64,000 nucleotides of DNA from a virus. Its lineage: Duplodnaviria; Heunggongvirae; Uroviricota; Caudoviricetes. Shown piece after piece: positions 4,973 through 61,640 of the stretch. The stretch lies in IMG/VR virus record IMGVR_UViG_3300021255_002129, one strand, 5' to 3'. Position 1 is the stretch's first letter. Each line of letters starts with the position of its first letter. The position numbers and the translations under genes are program-made. The notes below the pieces were generated by a model, which worked only from the letters and a program-made list of their open reading frames with translations, did no database searches and was not told the DNA's origin.

Positions 4973-6928
4973 ATGGATCCAGATAAGATACATGAATATA
5001 AAATTCAAGAATTAGTTGATAAATTAAATTATTATACTAAACTATATGATGAAGGTCATCCCGCAATTAGTGATAAAGAATGGGATGATATGTATTTTGG
5101 ATTACAACAGTTAGAAAATTATTATGGTATTTATCTCCCAGACAGTCCAACTCAAAAAGTTAATTATCAAGTTGTAAATAAATTAAATAAAGTAAAGCAT
5201 AATCATCCTATGTTATCGCTTGATAAAACTAAATCAATAGATGCAATTAAATCTTTTTTAGGAAATAAAGATTTTATTTGTATGGCAAAAATGGACGGTC
5301 TGACTTGTTCTTTAAGATATTTAGATGGAAAATTAGTATCTGCGGAAACCCGCGGAAATGGTATTGAAGGAGAAGATATTTTTCATAATGCTTTACAAGT
5401 AAAAAATATTCCTAATAAAATTAACTATAAAGAAGAATTAATTATAGATGGAGAAATAATTTGTACTTATAATGATTTTAAAAATTTTGAAAAAGAATAT
5501 AAAAACCCTAGAAATTTTGCAAGTGGTAGTATAAGATTATTAGACAGTAAAGAAAGTTCTATGAGAAATCTTACTTTTATAACATGGGATATTATAAAAG
5601 GTCTAGATGAAGATAGATTAAGTAGCAAATTATTAAAGGCAGATGAATTAGGTTTTACTATTGTTCCTTTTGAAATTAATTTACCTGAATATGAAACAAT
5701 AGAGCAAATTATGGAGATAGTAAAAAAATCTAGCTCTATATATCCAATTGATGGACTTGTTTTTAAGTATGATAATTGTGATGAATATATTGCCGCAGGT
5801 AAAACCGACCATCATTTTAAGGGTGGATTGGCATATAAGTTTTATGATGAAGAATATGAAACTACTTTACAAAATATAGAATGGACTATGGGAAGAACTG
5901 GAGTACTAACTCCCGTAGCTATATTTGAACCTATTGATATAGATGGAACTGAAGTATCAAGAGCTAATTTATTTAATTTAAGTGTGGCTAGAGAGACTCT
6001 TCATGGTACTCAATACAGACTTGGTTGGAAAGGACAAAAAATAAATGTTTTTAAAGCTAATCAAATTATCCCTCAATTAAGTTGGTCAGAAGAAGATGAT
6101 GAGAAAACTAAAGAATATTTTTCTTATCCTGCAAGTTGCCCTATTTGCGGCTATTCAACAAAAATAAAAAAAGAAAATGATGTTGAAGTATTATTTTGCG
6201 ATAATGAACAATGTGAAGGTAAATTATTAAATAGAGTAGAACATTTCTTTAGTAAAAAAGGTTTAAATGCAAAGGGTTTATCAAAAGCAACAATAGAAAA
6301 ATTAATAGATTGGGGATGGATTAATGGAATCAAAGATGTATTCATACTTGATGCGTATGCAGAGGATTGGAAGAAAAAGGCAGGTTTTGGAGAAAAGTCT
6401 GTTAACAATATTATCACATCCATCAGAGAAAATAGTAATACTGACCTCGAATCCGTTATTAGTGCAGCAGGAATTCCACTTATTGGTAGAACAGTGGCTA
6501 GACAAATCGCAAGCATCTTCAATACATACGAGGATTTTAGAAAAGCAATCGGGAATTTTGATTTTTCAGAAATAGATGGCTTTGGATATGAAATGAATAA
6601 ATCATTAAAAAATTATAATTATGATGAATTAGATTATATTGTAGAAAATTTCTTAACTATAAATAATAAAATAGAAGAAAGGAAAGAACAAAAATTAGAA
6701 GGTTTAACTTTTTGTGTAACCGGAAAAATCAAACAATGGAAGAACAGAGATGAACTATCTAGTTTTATTACTTCACTAGGCGGAAAGGTAGTGGGTTCAG
6801 TTTCCGCAAATATGGATTATTTAATAAATAACGACATTAATTCAACATCAAGTAAAAATTTAAGAGCTAAAGAATTGGGCAAACAGATTATTGATGAGCA
6901 AACTTTCATGGATATGTTTGATTTATAA
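4973..6928 (+). CDS. ligA: NAD-dependent DNA ligase
   Basis: Adenylation motif 'MAKMDGL', OB/Zn-finger 'CPICG...C..C' and C-terminal BRCT ('LTFCVTGKI...') are all present. No TGA. Confidence 0.9.
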   Translation: MDPDKIHEYKIQELVDKLNYYTKLYDEGHPAISDKEWDDMYFGLQQLENYYGIYLPDSPTQKVNYQVVNKLNKVKHNHPMLSLDKTKSIDAIKSFLGNKDFICMAKMDGLTCSLRYLDGKLVSAETRGNGIEGEDIFHNALQVKNIPNKINYKEELIIDGEIICTYNDFKNFEKEYKNPRNFASGSIRLLDSKESSMRNLTFITWDIIKGLDEDRLSSKLLKADELGFTIVPFEINLPEYETIEQIMEIVKKSSSIYPIDGLVFKYDNCDEYIAAGKTDHHFKGGLAYKFYDEEYETTLQNIEWTMGRTGVLTPVAIFEPIDIDGTEVSRANLFNLSVARETLHGTQYRLGWKGQKINVFKANQIIPQLSWSEEDDEKTKEYFSYPASCPICGYSTKIKKENDVEVLFCDNEQCEGKLLNRVEHFFSKKGLNAKGLSKATIEKLIDWGWINGIKDVFILDAYAEDWKKKAGFGEKSVNNIITSIRENSNTDLESVISAAGIPLIGRTVARQIASIFNTYEDFRKAIGNFDFSEIDGFGYEMNKSLKNYNYDELDYIVENFLTINNKIEERKEQKLEGLTFCVTGKIKQWKNRDELSSFITSLGGKVVGSVSANMDYLINNDINSTSSKNLRAKELGKQIIDEQTFMDMFDL

Positions 6929-18752: not shown

Positions 18753-19082
18753 ATGAATAAAAAATATAAATTTGATAGACTAATGTTTGATAGATACGCA
18801 GTGTGGTATATGGAAACACCAAAAGATAAAAGTAAATTAGGAGTATGGAAAATTATAGATTGCTTCCCTGGAACTAGACCAGCTAAATTTGCTTTTAGAT
18901 GGAAAGTAAAAGGAAAAGATAAAACACAAGAGCAATTAGATGAACAAATATTAAGTAATGCTACAAGAAACTTTTACAAACCTACTAATGTATTCCGCGG
19001 AAACCGCTCAATGGAGAGTCAAGCTCAGAGTAGAGCTGCACAATCTGCAACCGCAAAGGAGGAAAAATGCAAAAAATTATAA
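18753..19082 (+). CDS. hypothetical protein (109 aa)
   Basis: RBS GAGGAGAG. Trp is encoded by TGG here. Confidence 0.4.
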   Translation: MNKKYKFDRLMFDRYAVWYMETPKDKSKLGVWKIIDCFPGTRPAKFAFRWKVKGKDKTQEQLDEQILSNATRNFYKPTNVFRGNRSMESQAQSRAAQSATAKEEKCKKL

Positions 19083-40619: not shown

Positions 40620-40871
40620 TTAAAGCTTAAAGGTATCCCTAAAAGCTTTAAATTCTTTATCATAATCCATACCACGCTCTTTAGCAATATTACGAACAAC
40701 TTTTTCTATTTCTTCTGTTTTTCCTTCTTTGATTAGATTTGCTAAATTTTGCATGATTGGATTTCCTTGACTTGCAGCTTCATTAACCATGTTTGAAACA
40801 AGAGCTGATGGATCTTGACTCTTAAAGCTACTAATCAATCTAAACATATCTTGAGGACTTCTAATAAGCAT
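40620..40871 (-). CDS. hypothetical protein (83 aa)
   Basis: ORF overlapping the upstream gene's end by 11 nt. Confidence 0.4.
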   Translation of the reverse strand: MLIRSPQDMFRLISSFKSQDPSALVSNMVNEAASQGNPIMQNLANLIKEGKTEEIEKVVRNIAKERGMDYDKEFKAFRDTFKL

Positions 40872-41274
40872 TTACTTTCACATCCTTTGCGGCGGCAGGT
40901 GCTGCAGGCGTAGGGGCTTGCTTTGCCGTACTATTCATCAACGCATCTAATTTTTCATTTAAAGCATTGATTTTTTCTAATAATTCATCTCTTGATGAGA
41001 TTTCTTTTGCTTCCTTAGTTTCCTCTACAGGAATAGGTTTATAAGTGTTGATTTGAGTAGTTCCATTATTATTCCATGACTTGACATAGATTTCACTTAG
41101 GTCTCCTTTTGGGAATACTCCAAATCCGCCAAATGGAACTTCATTCACTCTAACCATATCTACGCTATCAACCACTTTTCCTTGTAATGCGGCAACCGCA
41201 GGTTGAGCTTGTTGAGGCTGATACATATTGCCATACGAATAGTTTTGATAAAAATTATTTGGATAATAGTTCAT
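40861..41274 (-). CDS. hypothetical protein with Q/N/Y-rich N-terminus
   Basis: 'MNYYPNNFYQNYSYGNMYQPQQAQP'. RBS GAAAGGAG, with a TATAAT-like element just upstream. Confidence 0.45.
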   Translation of the reverse strand: MNYYPNNFYQNYSYGNMYQPQQAQPAVAALQGKVVDSVDMVRVNEVPFGGFGVFPKGDLSEIYVKSWNNNGTTQINTYKPIPVEETKEAKEISSRDELLEKINALNEKLDALMNSTAKQAPTPAAPAAAKDVKVNAY

Positions 41275-43808: not shown

Positions 43809-45860
43809 CTAAAATCTTTCTAAAGCTCTTGTAGCTGATATTGACATCGTACTACTTATATCAAGAGGAATAGAAATACTTGAAATCATATAATCTCCAT
43901 AAATATCACTTTCAATATCCCTAACCCCAATTCTTGTATTCGGTTCTAAATGATAGATTGGAATACTTTGAATAGTAATACTTTCATTATAACTTGTATA
44001 TTCATGCAACATCATTTTTATTTCATTAAATGCTGAATTGGATGTTCCACCAAGAGCAAGTAAGTTAAATATTCCTGTAGTTACTTGAATATAGTTTTGA
44101 CCTTTAGCTTCACATTCTGCGCGTTTTTCATCAGTATCAGGTTGACCTAATTCTATAATAATAAAATCAGGTATATCTGGTTCAAATACGCAATTTATAT
44201 CATTTCTATTAACGACTTGACTGCGGCGACCGATATTACGAACACTGAACTTCGATATTGCTGCAGCAGAGTCTATAAAATCTAAATAGTAATCTATATC
44301 ACTAGGTGTTTTTAAGACCTCATCATAAAAGCCACCTGTATAAATAGTTTCACCTTTATCATCTATGTAAAAATCCTTTTGTAGATTATACAGCTTTGGC
44401 CACTCGTTCATTAATTCAGTATAGTAGTAATTAGAATCTATGCCCAGTGGCTCAGCTTGAACTCCTTGTAAATATAATTCACTTCTTCAATCTGTTGTTT
44501 TAACTTTAACAAATTGAGTTGTTTCACTATCTACTTCAACATATTGTTTTAAATCTCCATCTCAATAGTAAATAGTTCCTGTACTAGTGTCTTTATAATA
44601 TACACCTGCCGCACCATCAGTTTTAACTATTTCTGCATAACTACTATATAATATAGGCATTTTTGCTTTTGTTAATCCATCATCTGGGTCTTCATAGAAA
44701 AATACATCATATATATTTCCAATAGCAGGTTTAGTATCAATAGCTAAATGATATCTAATAGGAACATCGTTACCATTAGCATTTTTTCTAATTCCCCAAA
44801 CTACAAAATCATTTTTAATTTTATTAAATTGAGGACTATTAGAAAATGATGTAACTAAATTACTATTATTAAATTCATATACTGTTTTACCTTTACTAGC
44901 ATCAATTAAATAATCATTCTTATTCATTGTTTCTAAATCTAATGTTGCTTTTGTTGTGTTTAAATAATTTTTAATTTCTTGCCAATGAAAATTTCCTTCT
45001 GTATCATAAAAATATTCATAATTACCTAGCATATTTTTAATTTTATCTAAGATAACACACACATTATCTCCAGCATTTCCAATTAATTCACTAGGGCAAG
45101 TAAAGTTTGTAAACATATAACCAATATCTTCACCATACTCAAACATTTGATAAGTATGACCCGCGGCGTCCGCATAATTAGTTGACATTGTGTATGAACC
45201 ACTATCTTCAATTAAATACAATGGTGTATTTCCAATTCATTTCATTACTTTTTTTATTCTTGAAGGTACATCAGATATAATTATCTTACTTAATTGTTCT
45301 CCTCCAAAATGATTAACTACCTCCCTAATAATTTGTTCAAAGGTAGGTTTTGATATAACTCAATTTCCATTCTCGTCAATGGTTTCATATTGATCGAATT
45401 GCGTTGATGCAGGAATCACACCTCCGCATTCTCCATTTAACAAACACATTTTATCTCTTAATGAAACTTGTAATGAAGCTCCTCCAGTCGAACGGCTTAA
45501 TGAAGGAGCTATCATAACAAATGTCCCTTGTGGAAATCAAATCTTTTTATGTCTAATATATTGGTCTGTTGTATTAACATAACCAATTTCTAAATACATT
45601 TTTTTATTTATTGAAAACAAATTATCTAAACTTGTTATATTTGCATTTTCTTCTTTATCTATATAGCAAGATAAATTGACAGTTCTTCTTACATTTGAAT
45701 TACCATCTAAATTAAGATTGCCACCTGTTACAATTCCTTGAACTTCTTGTATAGGTCTTTCTTCTCAATCTAATATGGTGATTTTAACAAACTGTTCTTT
45801 TAAATGTTCATTATCTATTAGTTCTAAAAAACTTTTATCACTAGAATATTCATATACTTT
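43809..45860 (-). CDS. large tail tip/baseplate hub (Tal-like) structural protein, 683 aa with at least five in-frame TGA
   Basis: Continuous hand translation from the ATG at 45858-45860 (overlapping the upstream TAA) to TAG at 43809. It incorporates track ORFs 44562..45221 and 43809..44411, which share a frame. Confidence 0.5.
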
Positions 45861-48800
45861 TTTCATTACTCTGCATACCTACCTTTCATAATTTCACAAT
45901 GATAATCAATCAAGGCTTCAACAGGACAAAGTAAATCATCATTATTTGTAAATAGCCATCATTGGTCATTATGCCAAATAAATCTACTATTTGCTTCATC
46001 TATTAATCTTTGTAATATTAAAGCATATTGTCTATCTATTTCTTTATTTAATACTAAATGATAATAATCATCATAAGCTCTATCTAAACTAATAGTATAT
46101 GTTGAACCTAATTTTGACAATTGATCTGGATCTGTGGAAGCAGTCGCCTCATCAGGCCACTGTTCACGAGATTTCATTATATAAACTCCATCTCTATATT
46201 GTCTATCACCTGTTGGTATTAAATCTTCTTCATGATTTAAATTATTTTGAGTTTCATTTTCCTCATCTTTAGTTCCATCAATATATAATGAGCCTGTCCA
46301 TACATCTCCACCAACTTGTTCAATTCATTCTTCGTCTACTATTAATCCACCATCATCATCAATAGGTTGCAATACTCTATCAAATAATAATGTATAACTT
46401 GATGAAGGATGTTCTATATTATCTTGATTAACTGATGCAGTGTATTGTTCTGGTCATTGTTCTTTAGATTTAATGCTATATCATCCAGCAAATTGGTCAA
46501 TAGCTTCTAAATAATCATCTGCAAGAGTATAAACCCCATTTTTAATTAATTGAGATGTATCACTTACATATTTATCTAATATTATATTTGTTTCAATATA
46601 TTTATTATCGGGTAATGTTTCTCTTTCTTGCTCTGCGGCAGTAGCAGGTTCAAGATGGATACCAGCGAAATATAATCCCTCAATAGCAGAGCCCTCCGCA
46701 TCAAGAGCTAAAGTATGTGTTGGTCCAATAACATGTCTTTCAAAATCTGTATCTGCAGACTCTTTAACAAATATTACAGTACCTGGTTCAGCTTCAATTT
46801 TTACTCCATCTAAAGATAACATTATTTGTTGATAATTTGAATATTTTTCAAAATATTTATTCCATATATTTTGATAGATTGAATCATTTGGTTTAAATGC
46901 TCCTCATTTTTGTCCAACTCTTCTATAAAAACTACTAGTTTGAAATACTTTACTAGTATCTTCAGTTTGTTGTAAATTAATATGGTACTCTAAATTAACT
47001 TGAGTATCAACAGGAAAAAATAATGAAGTAATTTCTACGTTCTCACCTTTTAATTCATATATACCTTCTGGATTTATTATAATAGGTTTATTATTAACAT
47101 AAACTAAATAACCTAAGATTGCGGAATCTGGATTTTCTTTATCATCACCAAGATCATCTACTACACAGGGGCCATCTTCACCCTCTTTAATTAGGTATGG
47201 GTCACTTTCAAATTCTAATCTTAAGAAATCTAAATTTTGAATTGCAATTTTATAATTTTCTTTTGCATATTTTTCATATTTCTTTTGAATTAAACTTAAA
47301 GCCTCTGTATTTGCAGGTATTATTTCATTATATTGTCCTACATAATCACTAGCAAATTGTAATAATGTATCATAAGTTCCTAATGGAGAAATATTATATT
47401 TATCATAATTTTTAATTGTTGCCGCATCCACTTCATAAGCAGTTGCTGTAAATGAATATATTCTTCTACCTAATGTTGAATTAGGTGTTAAATTAATATC
47501 CATAATTTTAACAAGTATATTTCCTTCAGTAGCTGACCTGAATAATCTAACTTTATTTGCATATAAGAAATCCATAACTTTTTCTCTGAATTCACGCTCA
47601 TAAGTCCAATCGTTAAAATCATCTATTCTTACATTTTTATCTTTATTAAATTCAATATAATTATCTAGGCTGTCTCTAAACATTTCTTCTTTTGATGTTA
47701 TTAGATGTGATGGATCCATTAAATGAGTTATCGTACCTCCAATAGGAAATTGTCTATATTCAACATAGCCATTTCTTTTAATATATGGATATTTACTTCC
47801 TATTGTATCTGTGCGGGATTCACTTACTGTACGTTTGAACGAACTTACTGATGGATCAAATCTAATATTAAGTTGCCCATCTCCGCCAGTTAAATACATA
47901 TCATCAAATAACATCATGAATGGTTCATCCTCTGCGTGAATTGCGATACCTCTATTTCCAACACTACTTCTTCTTTGTGCTATATATTTATAATACACTC
48001 CACTTTTAATAGTATAGTCATATCAAGTATAATTTAATTTACTATTTTCTTCAAAAGACTCTGTATGAACATCTTCTCATATTGTAAAATTACTTTCACT
48101 TGATGTTCTTCTAATAGTTATATTACCAATAAAAGAATCGTCATCATCTTTGCTTTTAACATTAAGTACAATACAACCATTAATATTATCAAGAGTAGCA
48201 GTTAATGTAGCTTCAAGTTTATCAGCGTTTTCTTGGACTACCATAAATTCATATGTATCTTTTTCAGTATACATATTAGCAGTTTCATATTCAAAAGTAA
48301 AATAATAGCTTTCTCCTTCATTAAAAGCATATTCAAAAGTATAGTTAAATTCATTAATATTAAAATAAATATTTGAATATATTACACCACTATCTGATAA
48401 TAATTGATTATTTATATCGTATAATTTTATTTGATAACTTTTTAATGTATCTGTTTCCGCGGAATCCGCATATGTTAATCTACCAACCACATCTACATTA
48501 TTTAATGACCATAACGTTGTGTCTGCGGAAATATCGAATCCTGAAACACTAAGACTAGGTACACTAATCCCTCTAACTAAACATACTGTTGATCATTCAG
48601 AGAAGTTTGATAAATTTGCAGCAAGCCAGCTATCGATCGCTTGAGGCGTGTTTAAAGATACATCGGCGGCGCCTGCCGCAGTAAATCTAATTTGAACTTT
48701 GTAATATTGATTTATTTGAAAACCTTCTTCAATATCACTAGTTTTTATCTCAATATAATATTTATTATCTGATACTCTTGTTAAATCAGTTTTAATGTCA

Positions 48801-49024
48801 GTTAACATAATTTCACAAGGATATTTGCTTTTATCTAATACAGATAAATTGGTATTTTGATTAACAACTGTTACTTGTGCATTTTTTATATCATTTAAAC
48901 TATTATATAAAGAAATAGAGAAATATACTCTACAAGTATTTTTTTGTATATCACTACTTCCTACTAAAAACGCAGGCATGTAGGTATCCACAACTGGTGG
49001 ATATAAATTAATATTAACTGCCAT
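45861..49024 (-). CDS. very large tail/baseplate structural protein (~1054 aa, Dit-like position) with at least five in-frame TGA
   Basis: Track ORFs 48593..49024, 48077..48490, 46904..47998, 46481..46822 and 45959..46177 all share a frame and are each bounded by TGA. Gaps read without TAA/TAG. An internal repeat 'KSKEQWPEQYTAS'/'KSREQWPDEATAS' is present. Confidence 0.5.
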
Positions 49025-49055
49025 ATCATCTCTCTCCTTTTTCTCTTAATCTTTA

Positions 49056-49508
49056 TTACTTATTTTCTTCTTTTTTATGAATTACTGATACTATTGGTAA
49101 TACTCTTATATCTTTCATAAAACCATCTATAAAAGTATTTCCGTTTTCTTCTTTATAATGTTTGTATCTAGCTTCTATACATTGAAGATTATAGTCATCA
49201 ATATAACCTAAATCATAACAAAAATAATGATGTTTTTCAGTAATCCAAGCTTTAATATCGTCTTTATCTGACTCTATTAAAACACTAATTGATTTAGCCA
49301 TTTTATCAATTTGTTTATTATGTGATTCTAACGTATCTATCATCTTTTGATGTAATTCTTCTACCGATTGTTGCTTACTTGTTGTTTTTGTTATTCTATT
49401 TTTTGCTCAATCATAAAAATCAACAACACCCTTAATAGCAAATGCTAACATTACAACAAAAATAGCTATATCAGTTAATGAATAATTTTTAAGTAAATCT
49501 AACATTCT
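49056..49508 (-). CDS. N-terminally membrane-anchored protein (150 aa), one TGA; possible lysis-associated protein
   Basis: Strong RBS GGAAGGAGATATAGA, then ATG. TM segment 'IAIFVVMLAFAIKGVV', then 'DFYDW(TGA)AKN...', in frame with track ORF 49056..49343. Confidence 0.45.
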
Positions 49509-49867: not shown

Positions 49868-49943
49868 AAATTAAACCTCCTTTTACGTCTTTGTTTCTAA
49901 TACTATGTGAAAAAGGATTAATTAAGATGGGTTATTTTTGACC

Positions 49944-49976
49944 AAAATAAAAAAGAGGAGTATTTAGTTACTCCTC
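49944..49976 (-). terminator. rho-independent terminator after the holin gene
   Basis: GAGGAGTA-TTTAGT-TACTCCTC with a flanking A/T tract. Confidence 0.6.
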
Positions 49977-50393
49977 ATCATCTTTAACTTCCCAAGTAAT
50001 GACTTCAGTGTCTGAACTAATATTTGCTAAATCTACAACTCCTTGAATTGCTTTCTTTCCTTGTGCCACAATAGTTGCAGTGACTACACCTAATACTGCA
50101 ACACTTGATAATGTATTAAGTAATTCGCTTGATAATAATATTACTCCAAATGCACTTGTAATCATTTTATTAATAAATGGTAACATAGTAAATGCAACAG
50201 CAACAAACACTGAGCATACATAAAACGCTAATATTTTTGTAATACCTTTAATCATTTTCTTTCCATTAAAAGTTTCTTTTCCTGACCAAATATTAATTAA
50301 TGTTCCAGTTACAATATTAACAATAGCAAGAATAGCTAATGCAATACCTAACCATCCCATTATTTGTAAAGTTTTTAAAATTGCTTCTACCAT
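49968..50393 (-). CDS. holin (multi-TM)
   Basis: 141 aa with three or four predicted TM helices and a charged C-terminus, located next to the endolysin. Confidence 0.6.
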   Translation of the reverse strand: MVEAILKTLQIMGWLGIALAILAIVNIVTGTLINIWSGKETFNGKKMIKGITKILAFYVCSVFVAVAFTMLPFINKMITSAFGVILLSSELLNTLSSVAVLGVVTATIVAQGKKAIQGVVDLANISSDTEVITWEVKDDEE

Positions 50394-50767
50394 AATATCA
50401 TGCGGCGGTCGTCGGTCTTAGAACTTTTAGTCTTGCTCTTACGCATGCCTGATCGGCTCCCGCGCCTCCTTTCCTTATTGTTTCCGCACTCTCCACCTTT
50501 AGTGCAATTATAACCAAAAAGTGGAATATTACTTTTGTAATAACCTATTAAATATTTTTCTAACCTAACAGCTTGCTCTTGTGTCAATCCACTAGATATT
50601 ACAATGTGTTTAATGTTTTTTCAGCCATATTTTTTAATAGGTTTATAGACTAACTGGCCTTTATAGCCTCGCCCATTTTTCCATCTAGACTCAGGTTTTT
50701 GGCCAGTTAATCCAATATATCGTTTCCCATTAGGGAAAATTAATTCATATACACAATAATTATGCAT
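50387..50767 (-). CDS. GIY-YIG homing-endonuclease-like protein inserted between endolysin and holin; at least one in-frame TGA
   Basis: 'VYELIFPNGKRYIGLTGQKPESRWKNGRGY' is a GIY-YIG motif and '...LEKYLIGYYKS...FGYNCTKGG' is I-TevI-like. The ATG overlaps the endolysin TAA, and the TAG stop overlaps the holin start. The C-terminal basic tail is encoded by an anomalously GC-rich patch (~50400-50480). Confidence 0.55.
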
Positions 50768-51945
50768 TATAGTTTTTGTAGACTTGATGCTGGGTAGAAT
50801 CCTGTAGTTCCAGATCCATTTCCAACTTGATATGGATAAGGTCTTCCATCCCAAATTCTTAAAATTTGTCTAGTCCATCCAATACCATATGCAGTATTAC
50901 TTCCACCATAAGAACTTCCATTACCAGTTCCTATAATCTTAACTTTATCTCCTACTTGTAATCCAGTTGGTTGTGGTGTAGGTTGTGGAGCAGGTTCATC
51001 ATATTTTTTAATTGAACTTTGATCCATCCATCCTAAGTCTCCTGTTGTATTATATGGATGCGCGCTTCCTGGGTTTTTTCTTGTAATATAAGTAACTTTA
51101 TTACTTACACTTCCTGCAGGACTAGCTGCATTAGAATTAACATATAGAGGTCCATTGATTATTACATGGTCTCCAATATTAAATGCATCACTTGGACCTG
51201 GAGTAGGTGTAGGGGCAGGACTTCCGCCATCTATTAATTTTTGAACGTCATCTGGTAAATATATAAAACATCTAAAGTAATAATTACTTGAACATCCCCA
51301 TCTACCATTATTATTTGTTCTAATTTGGTTCCAGAATATTGTGCTTGAGCCCCATCCAGATTCAGATGTATAAACTTGATTATTACTATCTACTCTTTCA
51401 ACGATTGCTACATGACCAGCGCCTGAGTTTCCCCAGCACATAATTGCTCCACGTTTTGGGGTTGAACCAGTTTTAAGCCCCGCTGTCTCCGCTCTTTCTT
51501 TAAAATTAATAGCATTGCAATTTAAAGTTTTATAAGTACATCCGCTTGTATCTCTTGCAATATTTATAATTTCATTAAATCTACCACTTGCATAACCTAC
51601 GCAGTTTGCTAATGCATTTGCTGGTGCATATAATGGATTACCTTTGATACAAGTATTCCATCCACCAGAACCTGTAACTATAAAGTTTTTGTTATTAGCA
51701 GGTCTGCTAATTCTCATTATAAAACCCGCAGCACCTATACCTTCAGGTTCATCTGCGTTAAGGTTTTCAATTTCATAATGCTCATCCGCATCATTTAATT
51801 CTTCAGGTGTGTCTGTGTTAAATAAATATTGAACATTTTCGTCATCAATATCATCTCTTAAAAAAGCTTTAGCAACCATAGTTTGCACTTCTGTAGGTGC
51901 CATTTCCACTCTTTTAATTCTTTCTTCACTTGATAATTGTGCCAT
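50767..51945 (-). CDS. endolysin: CHAP-domain peptidoglycan hydrolase with two C-terminal SH3b-like cell-wall-binding domains
   Basis: CHAP catalytic Cys 'ANCVGYASGRF' and His 'GAGHVAIVERVD'. A Pro/Thr linker 'PAPTPTPGP' precedes two SH3b-like repeats ('GDHVIINGPLYV...', 'LQVGDKVKIIGTGNG...'). Confidence 0.8.
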   Translation of the reverse strand: MAQLSSEERIKRVEMAPTEVQTMVAKAFLRDDIDDENVQYLFNTDTPEELNDADEHYEIENLNADEPEGIGAAGFIMRISRPANNKNFIVTGSGGWNTCIKGNPLYAPANALANCVGYASGRFNEIINIARDTSGCTYKTLNCNAINFKERAETAGLKTGSTPKRGAIMCWGNSGAGHVAIVERVDSNNQVYTSESGWGSSTIFWNQIRTNNNGRWGCSSNYYFRCFIYLPDDVQKLIDGGSPAPTPTPGPSDAFNIGDHVIINGPLYVNSNAASPAGSVSNKVTYITRKNPGSAHPYNTTGDLGWMDQSSIKKYDEPAPQPTPQPTGLQVGDKVKIIGTGNGSSYGGSNTAYGIGWTRQILRIWDGRPYPYQVGNGSGTTGFYPASSLQKL

Positions 51946-52029
51946 AGATTTTTACCTCCTTTATATAATTTGTAAAAAATAAAAACAACAATTAAAATAT
52001 TATCTTTCTCTTAATTATTTTTGAAATTT

Positions 52030-57425: not shown

Positions 57426-60400
57426 CTAATAATCTTTAACCGCAACAAGAATTCCATTTGTAAAACGTAATCCAATAACACTATTATCTGTTTTTCTAAT
57501 AATAATTTCATTTGTTGCTTGGCCAGTCTCTCCAGAAGAAGTATGTAAATTTCCAATATTATACAATCCATTTCCATTCATTTGAATAGCTCCTCTAACA
57601 TTTAAACCAGATACTTTTGGATGATTAGTTTCTATTCCCATTTCAAGATAATATTCTCCCTTATGAATACTAATACTTCCACCTGTAATAGTAGCTCCTC
57701 CAACAGTACCTCCATTAATACTAGAACCACTAATATTTCCACTAAACTGTCCATTACTAGCATGAAGAGTTCCATTACTTTCAATTCTAAAACGAGTACC
57801 ATAATTAATTAAATCAGCAGTCCCTTGTGACCATCCACCATTATCTATTCTAATATTTTTAAAGTGGGCGTTTCCTGCTGCATTAATCTCTCAATTTGGT
57901 CCTTTAAGAGTTCCATTTGCAGAGATATGTGTATTTCCATTATTGCTTTGTAATTCAGTTCCATTAATAGTTCATCCACCTATTTGACCGCTAGACGAAT
58001 ATAAAGCCCCATCTTTATCAACAGCAAATTTATTGTTAATAGCTAAATTTAAGTTATCTCTATTAGTTCCATTAATAGTTCTACTAAATAATCCATTATT
58101 ACTTGAAAATCTAATATTTGCAGAACTACTTTTTGTTCCCGTATAAATTGAATCATCATCAATATTAAACCCAGCTAAAGTACCTCCGCCTTTTGCAGTT
58201 AGATGTCCATCTTTATCAACTTTAAAATTACCATTTCCTCATTCAATTAATGGCGTAGTTAAATCAATTAACATTCCTTGATTATTTTTATTTCCAACGC
58301 CATAATTTAAAGGTTTTCCACTATCATCATAATTTTTTCAATAAGCGCTACTATATAACATAGCTTTTTCTGCGGCGGGGTCTAAAATAATTTGACCTGG
58401 GCCATGTTTACCAAATATTGCAGATCCATCTTCTGCATTTAAGAACATTGTACGTTCACCAAAATTATATCCAAACATACCAATATCTTTTTTATTTTTA
58501 CCAGCTTCTTTAACACTACCCATTAACATACCAGTAAAACTATTATCTGCTTCTTTTTGACCTGCACCAACTTGTGGAGCTAATATAACTCCATTACCAT
58601 TTTTATCTATGCTAACACTATTACCATCTCATCCGTTAATAGCTGCATTTCCATATTTATTTAATAATAAATGAATTGGTATATGAATTCTAGCAACTTC
58701 ATTTGCACTCTTATCTATTATGATACATTCAAGAGCATTAGTTACACACTCACCATCAAAATCATCTATTGGTTTATATGATTTTGTATTCCTTGCTGCG
58801 GGAATATCACCTCTTGAATATTCTTTTAAGAATTCTTTATTTATCCAACTTCTATTAACTGAGTCATATATTCTTCCTCGAATATTCCAATCATAATTAA
58901 CTCCATTAGTTTTAGTTAATACGCTGATATCTTCAGTGATATTATTTATTACTTTCGTTACTTTTAATTCAAAAGGCTTTGAATTATCATATTGCGGCTT
59001 GCGGCCATCTGCACTATAAGTCGCATATCTAAATCCTGTGTCTTCAACTAATGAAACTCCATATCCGCTTACCGCAGTTGCAGTTATAACAGGCATTGTA
59101 GCATAATATTCAATATTATCATAAGTAATTATAACTTTAACAATATTAGCAGGTGAATTAACACCTTTATATCCGCTATAACTAAATGTTCCATTATCTG
59201 TAACACCTAAACTAGTTTCATCATAAACATTGCTTGTGTATTTATTTTGTAAAATAGTTCATTTAACATTTGCAGTTTTTCCTTCAGTAGTATTACCACT
59301 TGAACTACCATCAAATATTTTTTCTCCACTATGCCATAATTGAGCATTAAACCATTTATTATTTTGTCTTGGAGTATAATTAATATTTCCATTTAATATC
59401 ATTGGATATCCAAAACCAGTGTTTTGAGTATTAGGAACTATTTTACATACGAATTCAGTTCCATTAGTTCCTGGTTCTCCTTCTTTAACAAAAGTAAAAT
59501 CAGTTTCCGCAACTAAATTCATATCTTTATAATCAACCGTTAATTTAATTTTATTATTGTTCTTTTTAATATCATACTTATCTCTAATTGTATATTGAAG
59601 ATACATTTCTCCTTCAACTGTTTTATAATCATCTTGAACAATCCAATCATAGCTATCAGGAACTTTTAGCATCGTATCTTCAAGAGGAACTGTTCAACTA
59701 AACTTACATTTATCTATAATATCATCTGCTAAAGCATTACCTAAATTATCATAAACTGTAAAACTTAATGGTAATATAACTTGAGGATTATCTAAACTAT
59801 CACTTACAGGTGATATACCAGCCTCATCGTATTTAAAAGTTTGTGTTCCATTATTTATAATTAAAGTATAAGCATCTTTTTTATCTAAATCATTTCTAAT
59901 AACAATAGAAGCAGTTCCAATATATATTCCATTGTGGTAAACTGAACATTTATAAGTACTAAAATTAGTTATTGTATTCACTTGTAAATGATGTATTTTT
60001 CTACCTTCTACTCTCATTATTTTATCATATCTATTTATAATTGTCAAGTATTGATTTAATTGTCCTTGACTTGCTGCGGCCATAGCTCTTTCTGCAGCAA
60101 TGTCAGCTTTAAGTTGCGTATAACCGACAACTGCATTGTTATATTCTGTATTATCTTCAGTGGTTTCCGTCAAAGCATAGAAATTATTATTATTATCTAT
60201 TTCAACTCATTGATAAGTATATTCATTACTAGTTGACTCTTGACCATTAATTTTACAAGTTAATGTAGGATTTCCAATATCATAATAGAATTGTTCGCCC
60301 TTATCGCTTTCAATACTAATCTCATAATTAGATGAATAATTAGTAACAGTAATAACCCTACTTAATTGAATATTATTATAAATAACAACACATTTATATT

Positions 60401-61559
60401 TAGTTTCTTTTGCTTCGCTATCGCTTTTCTTTACAATATATTTAAAATCTGCGGGAATCCATTCTACTACAGGTGCAGTTCCAGCAGATGCGTTTTTAAT
60501 TACGTTCTTTTGATTTAAACATTTCCATCCTTGTCCGCCATAAGCATTAAAATCTTCACTTAAACTAGTTACACCATTGTTTTCAACAAACCAATAATAT
60601 GGTAATCTTTGACTATCAGGATTAATATATTTACCTTTAACTCTTACTTGTGCCATTAATGTTCTAGTTGCACTAGGTAAATCATTTTCATCAAAATAAA
60701 CTCCTTGTGGAGTAACAAAACTTAAACTACATGACTCTAGGTCTACTGCACTTAAAGCCTGACTTCCGCATATTTCAAAATCTTTAATAAATATATCATT
60801 AAGTTTTGTTTCATCTTGATTTGGAAAATCATAACAGAATAGAGATATTTTATTTATATATTGAAAATTAACACCATCTATATCAAATATTCCAACTTGT
60901 CTTTTGAAATTAGGTATTTTATATGGATTACCTTCGAATTGATTAACATCAAGAGCATAATTTCTAGTAACTAATTCTTCACTAGCATTATCTTTAAAAA
61001 CCATTTCATATAAAATTCCGTAGTTTCCTCTAAATTGTTGTTCAGTAGGTAAGCTAGTTTTTATTGTAGCTGCTAAAAGTATTGATGTAGATGACTTTAT
61101 ATATTCGTTTATACTTTTTAGGTTAAGTCTTAAATTATTAGCAGAACTGCTATTTCTATCATATATTACATATTCATTAGTAGTTTTATATGAACATAAT
61201 TCATATTGGTTATTACTTTCTACACAGTTATTACCAATTATTTCAAAAGCCTCTTCACCTTCTGCGGCAACCGCATAATTCTTTCCTAATCGACTTACCG
61301 CACCTAGAATAGTTTTATCCCTACTCATATCATTATTAGGAATTAAAACATAGACTTCAGAGCCATTCATATAACTGATTTCAGAACTACCTGAATATGC
61401 ATAAAAATTACTATCTTGATATTGGACTTTGTATTTACCAATAGTTGGGTCTTCACAGTTAATAATCTTAGCTTGAACTGTCTTATCATATCCAGCATTT
61501 TTAACTCTTTGGTTTACAATAGTTTCAATAGCATCAAGTATTTGGTTTTCATATTTCAC
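57426..61559 (-). CDS. giant tail-tip structural protein (~1377 aa) with a C-terminal Gly/Asn-rich fibre-like repeat region; at least five in-frame TGA
   Basis: Six track ORFs (60207..61559, 59694..60173, 59259..59672, 58629..59096, 58338..58529, 57426..57641) share one frame and are each separated by a TGA. The gaps were translated by hand without TAA/TAG. Start is 'MKYENQILDAIE' after AAGGAG; stop is TAG at 57426. Confidence 0.5.
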
Positions 61560-61599
61560 TCCTTGTCATCTCCTTTTCTCTCTAAATTTCTTATTTTTT

Positions 61600-61640
61600 C
61601 TTCAATATTCTATTAGAAATATTATTTATATTTACCCAAA
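61600..61640 (-). promoter_or_regulatory. candidate late promoter element (minus strand GGGTAAATATAAATAAT) directly after the tape-measure terminator
   Basis: TATAAATA-like element in a conserved context that recurs at 52030-52060 and 38345-38370. Confidence 0.3.

What the first reader, a model, noticed from the sequence alone, without database searches (positions are those of the whole stretch)
50387..50767. GIY-YIG homing-endonuclease-like gene wedged between endolysin and holin, with an anomalously GC-rich 3' segment
The ORF starts on the endolysin TAA (TAATG overlap) and ends overlapping the holin start codon. It carries a canonical GIY-YIG core and I-TevI-like second motif. Its last ~30 codons, encoding a basic tail 'NNKERRRGSRSGMRKSKTKSSKTDDRRMILW', lie in a ~80-bp patch that is strikingly GC-rich for this genome (for example CGGCGGTCGTCGGTC...GGCTCCCGCGCCTCC). 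This suggests recent horizontal acquisition or a recombined DNA-binding tail. A homing endonuclease gene invading the lysis cassette is a typical selfish-element pattern and may affect holin translation.
Basis: partly seen in the sequence, partly recalled or inferred. Interest (0 to 1): 0.6.

Follow-up and report, generated by a model that had tools for sequence, protein, structure and literature searches.

The report
Truncated homing endonuclease fused to holin leader
A selfish nuclease gene sits between the two cell-bursting genes of a phage that reads TGA as tryptophan; it has lost its DNA-binding half, and its odd GC-rich tail is the neighbouring holin gene's former untranslated leader, now read as protein.

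Summary
The ORF 50387..50767 (-) is open only if the in-frame TGA at 50621-50623 is read as Trp. The window does this: late genes carry up to 10 in-frame TGAs, and relatives swap TGG and TGA at invariant Trp positions.

The protein is a GIY-YIG nuclease (Pfam above cut-off; the model's best match is the I-TevI catalytic domain). Relatives show the site is polymorphic: no gene, a full-length 186-aa gene, or this 126-aa form.

The GC-rich tail is neither an acquired DNA-binding module nor recent. In L023 the same sequence is the untranslated 80-nt spacer between a full-length endonuclease gene and the holin ATG. The window is 267 nt (89 codons) shorter there, lacking the DNA-binding region and stop codon, so translation runs through the old leader to a TAG overlapping the holin ATG.

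Alleles without the gene keep the same Shine-Dalgarno, GC stem and 8-nt spacer around a short loop, so the leader is native to the holin.

The nuclease core is under strong purifying selection (dN/dS about 0.1). The tail is predicted disordered and varies quickly.

Whether the stem works as a split ribosome-binding site is unproven. This is an unusual variant of a known kind of element.

The parts
50767..51945 (-). Endolysin (392 aa, CHAP domain). It has its own strong Shine-Dalgarno (AAAGGAGG, 9 nt, ATG). It contains no in-frame TGA and 8 TGG codons.
50387..50767 (-). 126-codon GIY-YIG gene, open only under code 4. It has no Shine-Dalgarno of its own; its start overlaps the endolysin stop as TAATG.
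50483..50767 (-). GIY-YIG catalytic core, codons 1-95. Y7, Y17, R28, E70 and N87 are invariant or nearly so. dN/dS is 0.07-0.18. pLDDT is above 90 and the best structural match is the I-TevI catalytic domain (1mk0).
50621..50623 (-). In-frame TGA at codon 49, read as Trp. It aligns with an invariant Trp in the motif KYGW. Codons downstream of it are under purifying selection (pN/pS 0.16).
50474..50484 (-). Junction of the in-frame 267-nt (89-codon) gap relative to full-length alleles. The linker, the helix-turn-helix domain and the stop codon are missing. It is flanked by an A.GAAA microhomology.
50394..50473 (-). Former holin leader, now translated as the basic tail (codons 99-126). It is homologous to the untranslated spacer of L023. 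This is the GC-rich patch.
50465..50469 (-). GGAGG, the holin's Shine-Dalgarno, now 71 nt upstream of the holin ATG and inside the endonuclease ORF (codons 100-101, Arg-Arg).
50451..50463 (-). 5' arm of the predicted closing helix (GCGGGAGCCGAUC).
50402..50413 (-). 3' arm of the predicted closing helix (GACGACCGCCGC). The CCGCCGC part is identical in the alleles that lack the gene.
49968..50393 (-). Holin (141 aa, Phage_holin_4_1). It has no Shine-Dalgarno near its start. Its ATG lies 4 nt upstream of the end of the endonuclease TAG.
49955..49976 (-). Intrinsic-terminator-like hairpin plus T-run overlapping the holin stop codon. It closes the endolysin / endonuclease / holin transcription unit.

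Best explanation
This is a free-standing GIY-YIG homing endonuclease gene. It was inserted precisely between the endolysin stop codon and the holin ribosome-binding site of a phage that reads TGA as tryptophan in its late genes.

The copy in the window is a truncated derivative. An in-frame 267-nt deletion, or an equivalent recombination, removed the linker, the DNA-binding domain and the stop codon. Ribosomes therefore read on through the holin's 5' leader until a TAG that overlaps the holin ATG. That leader consists of a Shine-Dalgarno followed by a GC-rich stem-loop.

The 'anomalously GC-rich basic tail' is that leader translated. Its GC content reflects its origin as a structured untranslated sequence, not codon usage. 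That is why it is predicted disordered and evolves fast.

Shown:
- The tail is homologous to the untranslated spacer of a full-length allele.
- Alleles lacking the gene have the same Shine-Dalgarno, stem and spacer.
- TGA is read as a sense codon.
- The catalytic core is under purifying selection.

Inferred:
- The 126-aa product is still an active nuclease, made late in infection. It is translated by reinitiation after the endolysin (TAATG) and only once TGA is decoded.
- Without a specificity domain it probably no longer homes efficiently. It is inherited vertically with this holin allele.
- Holin translation now comes from termination-reinitiation at ATGGTAG, from the distant Shine-Dalgarno brought near the AUG by the GC-rich helix (a split ribosome-binding site), or from both.
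For: Genetic code:
- Long late-gene ORFs carry up to 10 in-frame TGAs, while most early plus-strand genes have none.
- Trp29 is TGG in the window and TGA in 7 of the 10 family members examined. Trp49 is TGA in all and aligns with an invariant Trp.
- pN/pS downstream of the TGA is 0.16.

Family:
- Pfam GIY-YIG scores above its cut-off, and PHROGs calls it a homing endonuclease.
- In the AlphaFold model, residues 1-95 have pLDDT above 90. The best PDB match is the I-TevI catalytic domain 1mk0 (probability 1.0, TM 0.74).

Site polymorphism:
- L001, L003-L012, L017 and L020 have endolysin, a Shine-Dalgarno and then the holin, with no endonuclease gene.
- L054-L058 and L063-L064 also lack the gene and have a holin 82-89% identical to the window's.
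- L021 and L023 carry full-length genes (about 190 and 186 aa) with a C-terminal helix-turn-helix at the same site.

Origin of the tail:
- L023 positions 851-1639 (spacer, holin and downstream) match window 50475-49687 at 92%. L023 positions 576-850 have no counterpart in the window.
- The junction sequences are shown.
- The leader in alleles lacking the gene reads GAAAGGAGG-GTGGCGG-16 nt-CCGCCGC-ATGATATT-ATG.

Properties of the tail:
- GC3 is 0.64 against 0.19 expected.
- pLDDT is below 50.
- Loop codons 107-116 vary at almost every position.

Selection: core dN/dS is 0.07-0.18 with dS up to about 1.

Operon and translation signals:
- The endolysin has a Shine-Dalgarno; the endonuclease gene and the holin have none near their starts.
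- A terminator follows the holin.

Helix:
- It appears in the consensus fold and in 6 of 8 single-sequence minimum-energy folds.
- Synonymous diversity in the Shine-Dalgarno and arm codons is 0.09, against 0.25-0.57 elsewhere.
Against: - No direct full-length ancestor of the window's own core allele with this spacer was found. L023's core is only 61% identical in protein. L025 shares the core at 94.5% nt but has a different 3' end. The order of events could therefore be recombination rather than simple deletion.
- The tail shows pN/pS of 0.3-0.4, not 1, so some protein-level constraint on it is possible.
- Helix support is weak. Fold z-scores range from -1.4 to +0.05. The helix is absent from the minimum-energy fold of the window itself and of L024. 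There is one compensatory change, a level 134 of 500 shuffles also reach. The synonymous-site test gives p = 0.21. L059-L061 carry a mismatch in the stem.
- The origin of the extra roughly 45 nt of GC-rich loop is unknown.
- No suppressor tRNA lies in the window.
- Nuclease activity and holin coupling are untested.
Confidence: 0.75

Rival explanations
1. One reading: the GC-rich tail is a recently acquired or recombined DNA-binding tail from a more GC-rich donor.
For: Codon usage in the tail is foreign to this genome (GC3 0.64 against 0.19 expected). The tail is basic. pN/pS is 0.3-0.4, below 1.
Against: The same sequence is an untranslated spacer after the stop codon of a full-length endonuclease gene in L023. 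Its Shine-Dalgarno, 3' arm and spacer are present in alleles with no endonuclease gene at all. It is predicted disordered. Its middle varies at nearly every residue. No donor was found in IMG/VR or in the genome collection, and the metagenome scan returned only members of this same family. All family members share it at dS up to about 1, so it is not recent.
Confidence: 0.05
2. The gene is a functionless decaying remnant. It is kept only because its sequence carries the holin's ribosome-binding site, or because its translation is needed to deliver ribosomes to the holin start.
For: The DNA-binding domain is lost. The holin has no Shine-Dalgarno near its start and overlaps the ORF's stop. L059-L061 retain a 5'-truncated remnant plus the leader in front of the holin after a swap of the lysin module.
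Against: A need for coupling alone would not constrain the amino-acid sequence. Yet core dN/dS is 0.07-0.18 over dS up to about 1, and all catalytic residues are invariant.
Confidence: 0.1
3. The truncated protein has been domesticated as a nuclease with a new role for the phage, not involving homing. Examples would be degrading host or competitor DNA late in infection, in the way the small stand-alone GIY-YIG enzyme T4 endonuclease II works (that comparison is from my own knowledge).
For: Strong purifying selection without a specificity domain. Endonuclease identity tracks that of the flanking endolysin and holin (95/96/95%, 96/96/96%, 81/86/79% in L049, L052, L050), which suggests vertical inheritance. 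The 126-aa form is the commonest form (the P0001 cluster has 149 member sequences).
Against: There is no direct evidence for any activity or target. Co-divergence with the flanks is also expected for a fixed endonuclease gene that can still home. Sampling of flanking genes is limited.
Confidence: 0.25
4. The ORF is an artefact. The TGA at codon 49 is a real stop, and the locus holds two unrelated short ORFs or a pseudogene.
For: Under table 11 the region splits into ORFs of 77 and 66 aa. No suppressor tRNA was found in the window.
Against: The TGA aligns with an invariant Trp. TGG and TGA interchange at Trp29 and Trp126 among relatives. There is purifying selection downstream of the TGA. In-frame TGAs occur across the window's late genes. 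Phages of this type are described in bioRxiv 10.1101/2021.08.26.457843.
Confidence: 0.03

Closest known systems
Free-standing GIY-YIG homing endonucleases of T-even phages (seg genes) and I-TevI
   Same: GIY-YIG catalytic domain with the I-TevI fold. Inserted in an intergenic region between conserved genes, in the same orientation as them. Present in some related genomes and absent in others. The start overlaps the upstream gene's stop with no ribosome-binding site of its own, as described for nrdA/mobE (PMC2988022). Full-length relatives carry NUMOD and helix-turn-helix modules.
   Different: The window's copy has no DNA-binding region. Its C-terminus is the translated leader of the downstream gene. 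It carries a reassigned stop codon. Cleavage and mobility are untested.
T4 I-TevIII (endonuclease inactivated by a large deletion) and the general cycle of invasion, fixation and decay of homing endonuclease genes
   Same: An internal deletion removes part of an endonuclease gene that stays in place (PMC2988022).
   Different: Here the catalytic core remains under strong purifying selection, so the gene is not simply decaying.
Split translation-initiation regions of T4 genes 25 and 38
   Same: A Shine-Dalgarno too far from the AUG (38 nt in alleles lacking the gene, 71 nt in the window), with a predicted intervening helix that would bring the spacing to about 9-10 nt. In T4, spacings of 22 and 27 nt are reduced to 5 and 11 (PMC3014915).
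   Different: The intervening segment is much longer and lies inside a translated ORF. The helix has no statistical support yet.
TGA-recoded gut phages ('Agate'-type, about 127 kb), Borges et al., bioRxiv 10.1101/2021.08.26.457843
   Same: TGA is read as Trp in structural and lysis modules but not in the replication genes. The relatives here come from metagenome contigs of 110-140 kb. That paper reports an intron endonuclease family that prefers TGA and suggests this delays endonuclease synthesis. In the family studied here, 18 of 30 Trp codons are TGA, against 29% in the window's long ORFs.
   Different: Clade membership was not tested. The endonuclease here is free-standing in the lysis cassette, not intron-encoded in an early gene.
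T4 mobA plus the 50-nt bypass insert of gene 60 (a mobile endonuclease cassette with an adjacent small insert)
   Same: An endonuclease gene travels with a small nearby insertion in the neighbouring gene's expression signals. The neighbouring gene's expression is rescued at the RNA or translation level (titles and text listed; the mechanism is from my own knowledge).
   Different: No bypassing is involved here. Any link between the GC-rich loop expansion and immunity to cleavage is pure conjecture.

Membership tests
GIY-YIG nuclease superfamily (Pfam PF01541) | Profile match above the curated cut-off | tested here: met
   29.8 bits against a cut-off of 22.6, residues 3-79
GIY-YIG nuclease superfamily (Pfam PF01541) | Conserved motif and catalytic residues (the two Tyr, plus Arg, Glu and Asn) | tested here: met
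   Y7, Y17, R28 and E70 are invariant, and N87 is invariant or nearly so, across 19-20 homologues. The equivalence to I-TevI Y6/Y17/R27/E75/N90 is from my own knowledge.
GIY-YIG nuclease superfamily (Pfam PF01541) | The alpha/beta GIY-YIG fold | tested here: met
   The model has the order b-b-a-a-b-a with pLDDT above 90. The best PDB match is 1mk0, the I-TevI catalytic domain (probability 1.0, TM 0.74, rmsd 2.5 Å). The model was built on P0001, which is 93% identical.
GIY-YIG nuclease superfamily (Pfam PF01541) | Nuclease activity | not testable with these tools
   Inferred only from purifying selection
Free-standing homing endonuclease gene | Presence/absence polymorphism at one conserved intergenic site among related genomes | tested here: met
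   Loci lacking the gene: L001, L003-L012, L017, L020, L054-L058, L063-L064. Loci with it: the window, L021-L024, L026-L027, L049-L053 and L062.
Free-standing homing endonuclease gene | A sequence-specific DNA-binding region joined to the catalytic domain | tested here: not met
   The window's protein ends 31 residues after the core in a tail predicted to be disordered. NUMOD and helix-turn-helix modules occur only in longer relatives.
Free-standing homing endonuclease gene | Cleavage of the allele lacking the gene, followed by gene conversion | not testable with these tools
   Needs enzyme assays and mixed infections
Free-standing homing endonuclease gene | Evidence of recent mobility (disagreement with the flanking genes) | tested here: inconclusive
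   Within the 126-aa family the gene's identity tracks the flanks. However, two endonuclease types only 61% identical occupy the same site next to holins about 96% identical.
Group I intron-encoded endonuclease | A ribozyme core flanking the ORF, interrupting a single gene | tested here: not met
   No Rfam match even at E <= 1. The allele lacking the gene differs by the ORF replacing about 10 nt of intergenic DNA.
Split ribosome-binding site (T4 gene 25/38 type) | Shine-Dalgarno at a non-functional linear distance from the AUG | tested here: met
   GGAGG lies 71 nt (window) or 38 nt (L054) upstream of the AUG, with no Shine-Dalgarno closer in.
Split ribosome-binding site (T4 gene 25/38 type) | A stable, conserved intervening helix that restores the spacing | tested here: inconclusive
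   The helix is predicted in the consensus fold, in 6 of 8 folds of gene-bearing alleles and in the allele lacking the gene. Against this: z-scores are -1.4 to +0.05, there is one compensatory pair (134 of 500 shuffles do as well), and the synonymous-site test gives p = 0.21.
Phage using genetic code 4 (TGA = Trp) | In-frame TGA at conserved Trp positions, concentrated in late genes | tested here: met
Phage using genetic code 4 (TGA = Trp) | A phage-encoded TGA suppressor tRNA | tested here: not met
   No tRNA in the 64-kb window. The rest of the genome was not available. Borges et al. found such tRNAs in only 35% of code-4 genomes.

The most novel reading that the evidence does not exclude
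The truncated endonuclease ORF and the expanded GC-rich leader together act as a translational gate for lysis. The holin's Shine-Dalgarno is buried in a translated, structured segment and its AUG overlaps the ORF's stop. Holin synthesis would then depend on ribosomes that have read through the TGA codon(s) of the endonuclease ORF. That would tie lysis timing to the phage's late switch of genetic code.

A related reading is that the GC-rich loop expansion, seen only in alleles that carry the gene, is an immunity insert that travels with the endonuclease gene, as the gene 60 bypass insert does with mobA in T4.
Probability: 0.12. Interest if true: 0.7.

Novelty: new variant of a known kind. Interest (0 to 1): 0.42.

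Why it matters
It explains a conspicuous compositional anomaly with a traceable event: a deletion fused a selfish nuclease gene to its neighbour's untranslated leader. It is a documented case of new protein sequence arising from a structured 5' leader.

It also shows a homing endonuclease gene that lost its specificity domain yet stays under strong selection. That raises the question of what such 'core-only' nucleases do.

Endolysin, nuclease and holin are chained by overlapping stop and start codons in a phage that recodes TGA. The locus is therefore a compact test bed for two ideas: that stop-codon recoding times lysis, and that distant Shine-Dalgarno sequences can be bridged by RNA structure.

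For annotation, the gene, like many in this genome, is missed or split unless code 4 is used.

Tried and rejected
- tRNA or tmRNA in the patch: none in the window.
- Known RNA family: no Rfam match at gathering score for the whole window, nor at E <= 1 for 49900-52000.
- Stable RNA structure: folds of the patch are no better than shuffles. Covariation is not significant. The synonymous-site conservation test gives p = 0.21.
- Repeat or mobile element: there is no second copy of the patch in the window.
- Origin of the GC-rich loop: block A has no match in IMG/VR. The block B matches are chance hits in contigs of 44-68% GC. The broader element pattern is absent from IMG/VR. Two loop patterns are absent from 185,579 reference genomes. 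The metagenome scan returned only the same 126-aa family.
- Other GC-rich patches as related elements: they are Ala/Gly/Pro-rich coding stretches.
- Sequence search of PDB with the family profile: only a spurious designed-repeat hit. The fold search was needed to recover I-TevI.
- Group I intron around the gene: rejected (see the membership test).
- An ungapped identity comparison of endolysin 3' ends was invalid because of indels. The tblastn values were used instead.
P0001 was used instead.

Full report
**The observation.** On the minus strand an ORF runs from the ATG at 50767-50765 to the TAG at 50389-50387. Its ATG shares one base with the endolysin stop (TAATG). Its TAG overlaps the holin start (ATGGTAG). 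Under the standard bacterial code the region is two ORFs of 77 and 66 aa. The last 33 codons lie in a real GC outlier. The 80-nt maximum is 55% against a window mean of 28.6% (SD 6.8%), a value reached by about 0.03% of 80-nt windows. Ten other regions also reach 50% or more, but those are Ala/Gly/Pro-rich coding stretches. In the target patch the excess is in codon choice. GC3 is 0.64 where 0.19 is expected for the same amino acids under the window's own codon usage, and none of 20,000 simulations reached that.

**Genetic code.** If TGA is read as sense, the minus-strand late genes become long ORFs with many in-frame TGAs. Examples are 57426..61625 (1399 codons, 10 TGA), 45866..49045 (8 TGA) and 43809..45878 (6 TGA). 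The plus-strand block 32.7-36.8 kb behaves the same way. Most plus-strand genes in 1-31 kb have none.

Within the gene itself, TGA49 aligns with a Trp that is invariant in 19-20 homologues. The invariant Trp29 is TGG in the window and L024 but TGA in L022, L025, L026 and L027. Trp126 is TGA in L027. Codons 50-93, downstream of the TGA, are under purifying selection (pN/pS 0.16). So the gene is intact under code 4.

This matches the TGA-recoded gut phages described by Borges et al. In those, late and lysis genes are recoded, and an endonuclease family prefers TGA (bioRxiv 10.1101/2021.08.26.457843). No tRNA lies in the window. I did not test membership of their 'Agate' clade.

**What the protein is.** Pfam GIY-YIG scores 29.8 bits against a cut-off of 22.6. 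PHROG 314 'homing endonuclease' gives E = 1e-15. An AlphaFold model of the 93%-identical P0001 has pLDDT above 90 for residues 1-95, with the secondary-structure order b-b-a-a-b-a. Residues 96-126 have pLDDT below 50. The best PDB match is the I-TevI catalytic domain 1mk0 (probability 1.0, TM 0.74 normalised to the target, rmsd 2.5 Å). Y7, Y17, R28, E70 and N87 are conserved.

Close relatives are all 126 aa long with the same tail. More distant ones (40-61% identity) are 186-221 aa and carry NUMOD modules and a C-terminal helix-turn-helix.

**The site is polymorphic.** Three kinds of allele were found.
- In L001, L003-L012, L017 and L020 the endolysin is followed within 15-70 nt by a strong Shine-Dalgarno and the holin, with no endonuclease gene.
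- L021 has a full-length gene of about 190 aa, inserted exactly between the endolysin stop and TAGGAGG.
- The window, L022, L024, L026, L027, L049-L053 and L062 have the 126-aa form.

This is the classic pattern for a free-standing homing endonuclease gene (PMC2988022).

**What the GC-rich tail is.** L023 carries a full-length 186-aa gene (P0009). It ends ...TWEYA-TAG, where other family members end. The 80 nt between that stop and the holin ATG are the window's tail sequence. Comparison by blastn gives the following.

| L023 positions | Content | Match in window |
|---|---|---|
| 2-575 | endolysin 3' end and endonuclease core | 51048-50484, 79% |
| 576-850 | linker and helix-turn-helix | only 8 nt (50483-50476) in its place |
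| 851-1639 | spacer, holin and downstream | 50475-49687, 92% |

The window is 267 nt, or 89 codons, shorter here, and the gap is in frame. At the junction L023 reads AAA GAA|AAT on the 5' side and TAG GAA|AGG AGG on the 3' side. The window reads AAG GAA AGG AGG. This fits a deletion between short A.GAAA repeats. The arithmetic agrees: 186 - 89 + 29 read-through codons = 126.

Alleles lacking the gene but with a closely related holin (82-89% identical: L054-L058, L063-L064) show the native leader. It reads TAA-11 nt-GAAAGGAGG-GTGGCGG-16-nt AT-rich loop-CCGCCGC-ATGATATT-ATG. The Shine-Dalgarno, the CCGCCGC arm and the 8-nt spacer are the same as in the window. Gene-bearing alleles have a longer, GC-rich segment between the arms.

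So the tail is the holin's leader, now translated. This accounts for three things: the foreign codon usage, the predicted disorder, and the near-saturated variation of codons 107-116.

**Selection.** Core dN/dS is 0.07-0.18 at dS up to about 1. For the tail it is 0.16-0.59. The gene is therefore not a pseudogene, and a need for translation alone would not conserve the core's amino acids. Within the 126-aa family the gene's identity tracks that of the flanking genes, which suggests vertical inheritance. Two endonuclease types whose cores are only 61% identical sit next to nearly identical holins, so there has been turnover at the site.

L059-L061 have a different lysin module: an r1t-type holin, a GH25 lysin and a 68-aa ORF. 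The recombination breakpoint there lies inside the endonuclease gene. A 5'-truncated remnant and the leader remain in front of the holin.

**How it probably works.** The endolysin has its own AAAGGAGG. Neither the endonuclease gene nor the holin has a Shine-Dalgarno near its start. A terminator-like hairpin overlaps the holin stop. From this I infer one late transcript. The endonuclease is made at a low level by reinitiation at TAATG, and only when TGA is decoded. Ribosomes finishing at the TAG can reinitiate at the holin AUG 4 nt upstream.

Independently, the GGAGG at 50465-50469 could serve the holin if the GC-rich segment folds. RNAalifold predicts a 10-bp interrupted helix between 50463-50451 and 50413-50402. 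With it formed, the GGAGG would sit about 9 nt from the AUG. The allele lacking the gene has the equivalent 6+3-bp hairpin. This resembles the split initiation regions of T4 genes 25 and 38 (PMC3014915).

The support for this helix is weak.
- The helix appears in 6 of 8 minimum-energy folds, but not in the window's own.
- Fold z-scores are -1.4 to +0.05.
- There is one compensatory pair, a level 134 of 500 shuffles also reach.
- Synonymous diversity in the Shine-Dalgarno and arm codons is low (0.09 against 0.25-0.57), but the site-count test gives p = 0.21.

I treat the helix as a hypothesis.

**Unresolved.** The source of the extra roughly 45 nt of GC-rich loop could not be traced. It is unknown whether the 126-aa enzyme still homes or has taken on another role. 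The order of events, deletion or recombination, is also not fixed.

**Verdict.** The 'homing endonuclease in the lysis cassette' reading is right. The 'acquired DNA-binding tail' reading is wrong. This is an unusual variant of a well-known kind of element, in an already described type of recoded phage. Its interest is moderate.

Noticed in passing
window 1-64000: TGA is used as a sense codon in the late modules (minus strand 43.8-64 kb, plus strand 32.7-36.8 kb). It is almost absent from plus-strand genes in 1-31 kb. Under table 11 many late genes appear fragmented. No tRNA gene lies in the window.
   Followed up: partly
window 49056-49505 (-): A second small lysis-type protein: an N-terminal transmembrane helix followed by a coiled coil, with weak PHROG holin and spanin-like hits. 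It is split by an in-frame TGA (…VVDFYD*AKNR…). It lies two genes downstream of the holin and has its own GGAAGGAG Shine-Dalgarno.
   Followed up: partly
L051 5570-6571: In this relative the endolysin gene itself is interrupted after nt 353 by about 1 kb. The insert encodes a full-length GIY-YIG endonuclease and has a GC-richer 3' part. The boundaries fit group I intron rules (exon ending in U, insert ending in G), but there is no Rfam match at E <= 1. The same locus also has the 126-aa gene, so the lysis cassette attracts endonuclease genes repeatedly.
   Followed up: partly
L024 2712-3368: A further 218-aa GIY-YIG gene lies two genes downstream of the holin in a relative. The window has nothing there.
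   Followed up: no
L025 1-1324: This contig has the same endonuclease core allele as the window (94.5% nt) but a different 3' end: a NUMOD3-like motif, then what looks like a frameshift. It is followed by a promoter-like sequence and an ABC-F-type ATPase gene instead of the holin. It may be a chimeric assembly or a different genomic context.
   Followed up: partly
L059 812-2926, L060: The lysin module is swapped: an r1t-type holin, a GH25/CW_7/LysM endolysin and a 68-aa ORF sit upstream of the same holin. The recombination breakpoint lies inside the endonuclease gene (near codon 55). An unannotated ORF of about 72 codons, starting at an internal ATG, remains and still ends at the TAG over the holin ATG.
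   Followed up: partly
L054 2464-2530 (also L055-L058, L063-L065): The leader in alleles lacking the gene holds an upstream in-frame ATG inside the hairpin loop and stem. Gene callers therefore give a 148-aa holin (MRPPHDI + holin). This could be a dual-start holin/antiholin arrangement controlled by the hairpin, or just a miscalled start.
   Followed up: no
L003-L011 about 6165-6226; L020 4934-5000: More distant relatives lacking the gene have an unrelated hairpin (AGCGACT…AGTCGCT or GCGGCAATC…GATTGTCGC) in the endolysin-holin spacer, ahead of the Shine-Dalgarno. A structured spacer between these two genes therefore seems to recur in this phage group.
   Followed up: no
window 18980-19074 (+) and 40847-40960 (-): Two other GC-rich patches are also C-terminal tails of genes (…SQAQSRAAQSATAKEEK, …AKQAPTPAAPAAAKDVK). 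Each runs directly into the next gene's Shine-Dalgarno and start codon.
   Followed up: no
window 50607-50781: The 5' part of the endonuclease gene has a 68% nucleotide match to Bacteroides crAss-like phages PhiCrAssBcn22 and PhiCrAssBcn23, next to their portal gene. This suggests related GIY-YIG genes in unrelated phage lineages.
   Followed up: no
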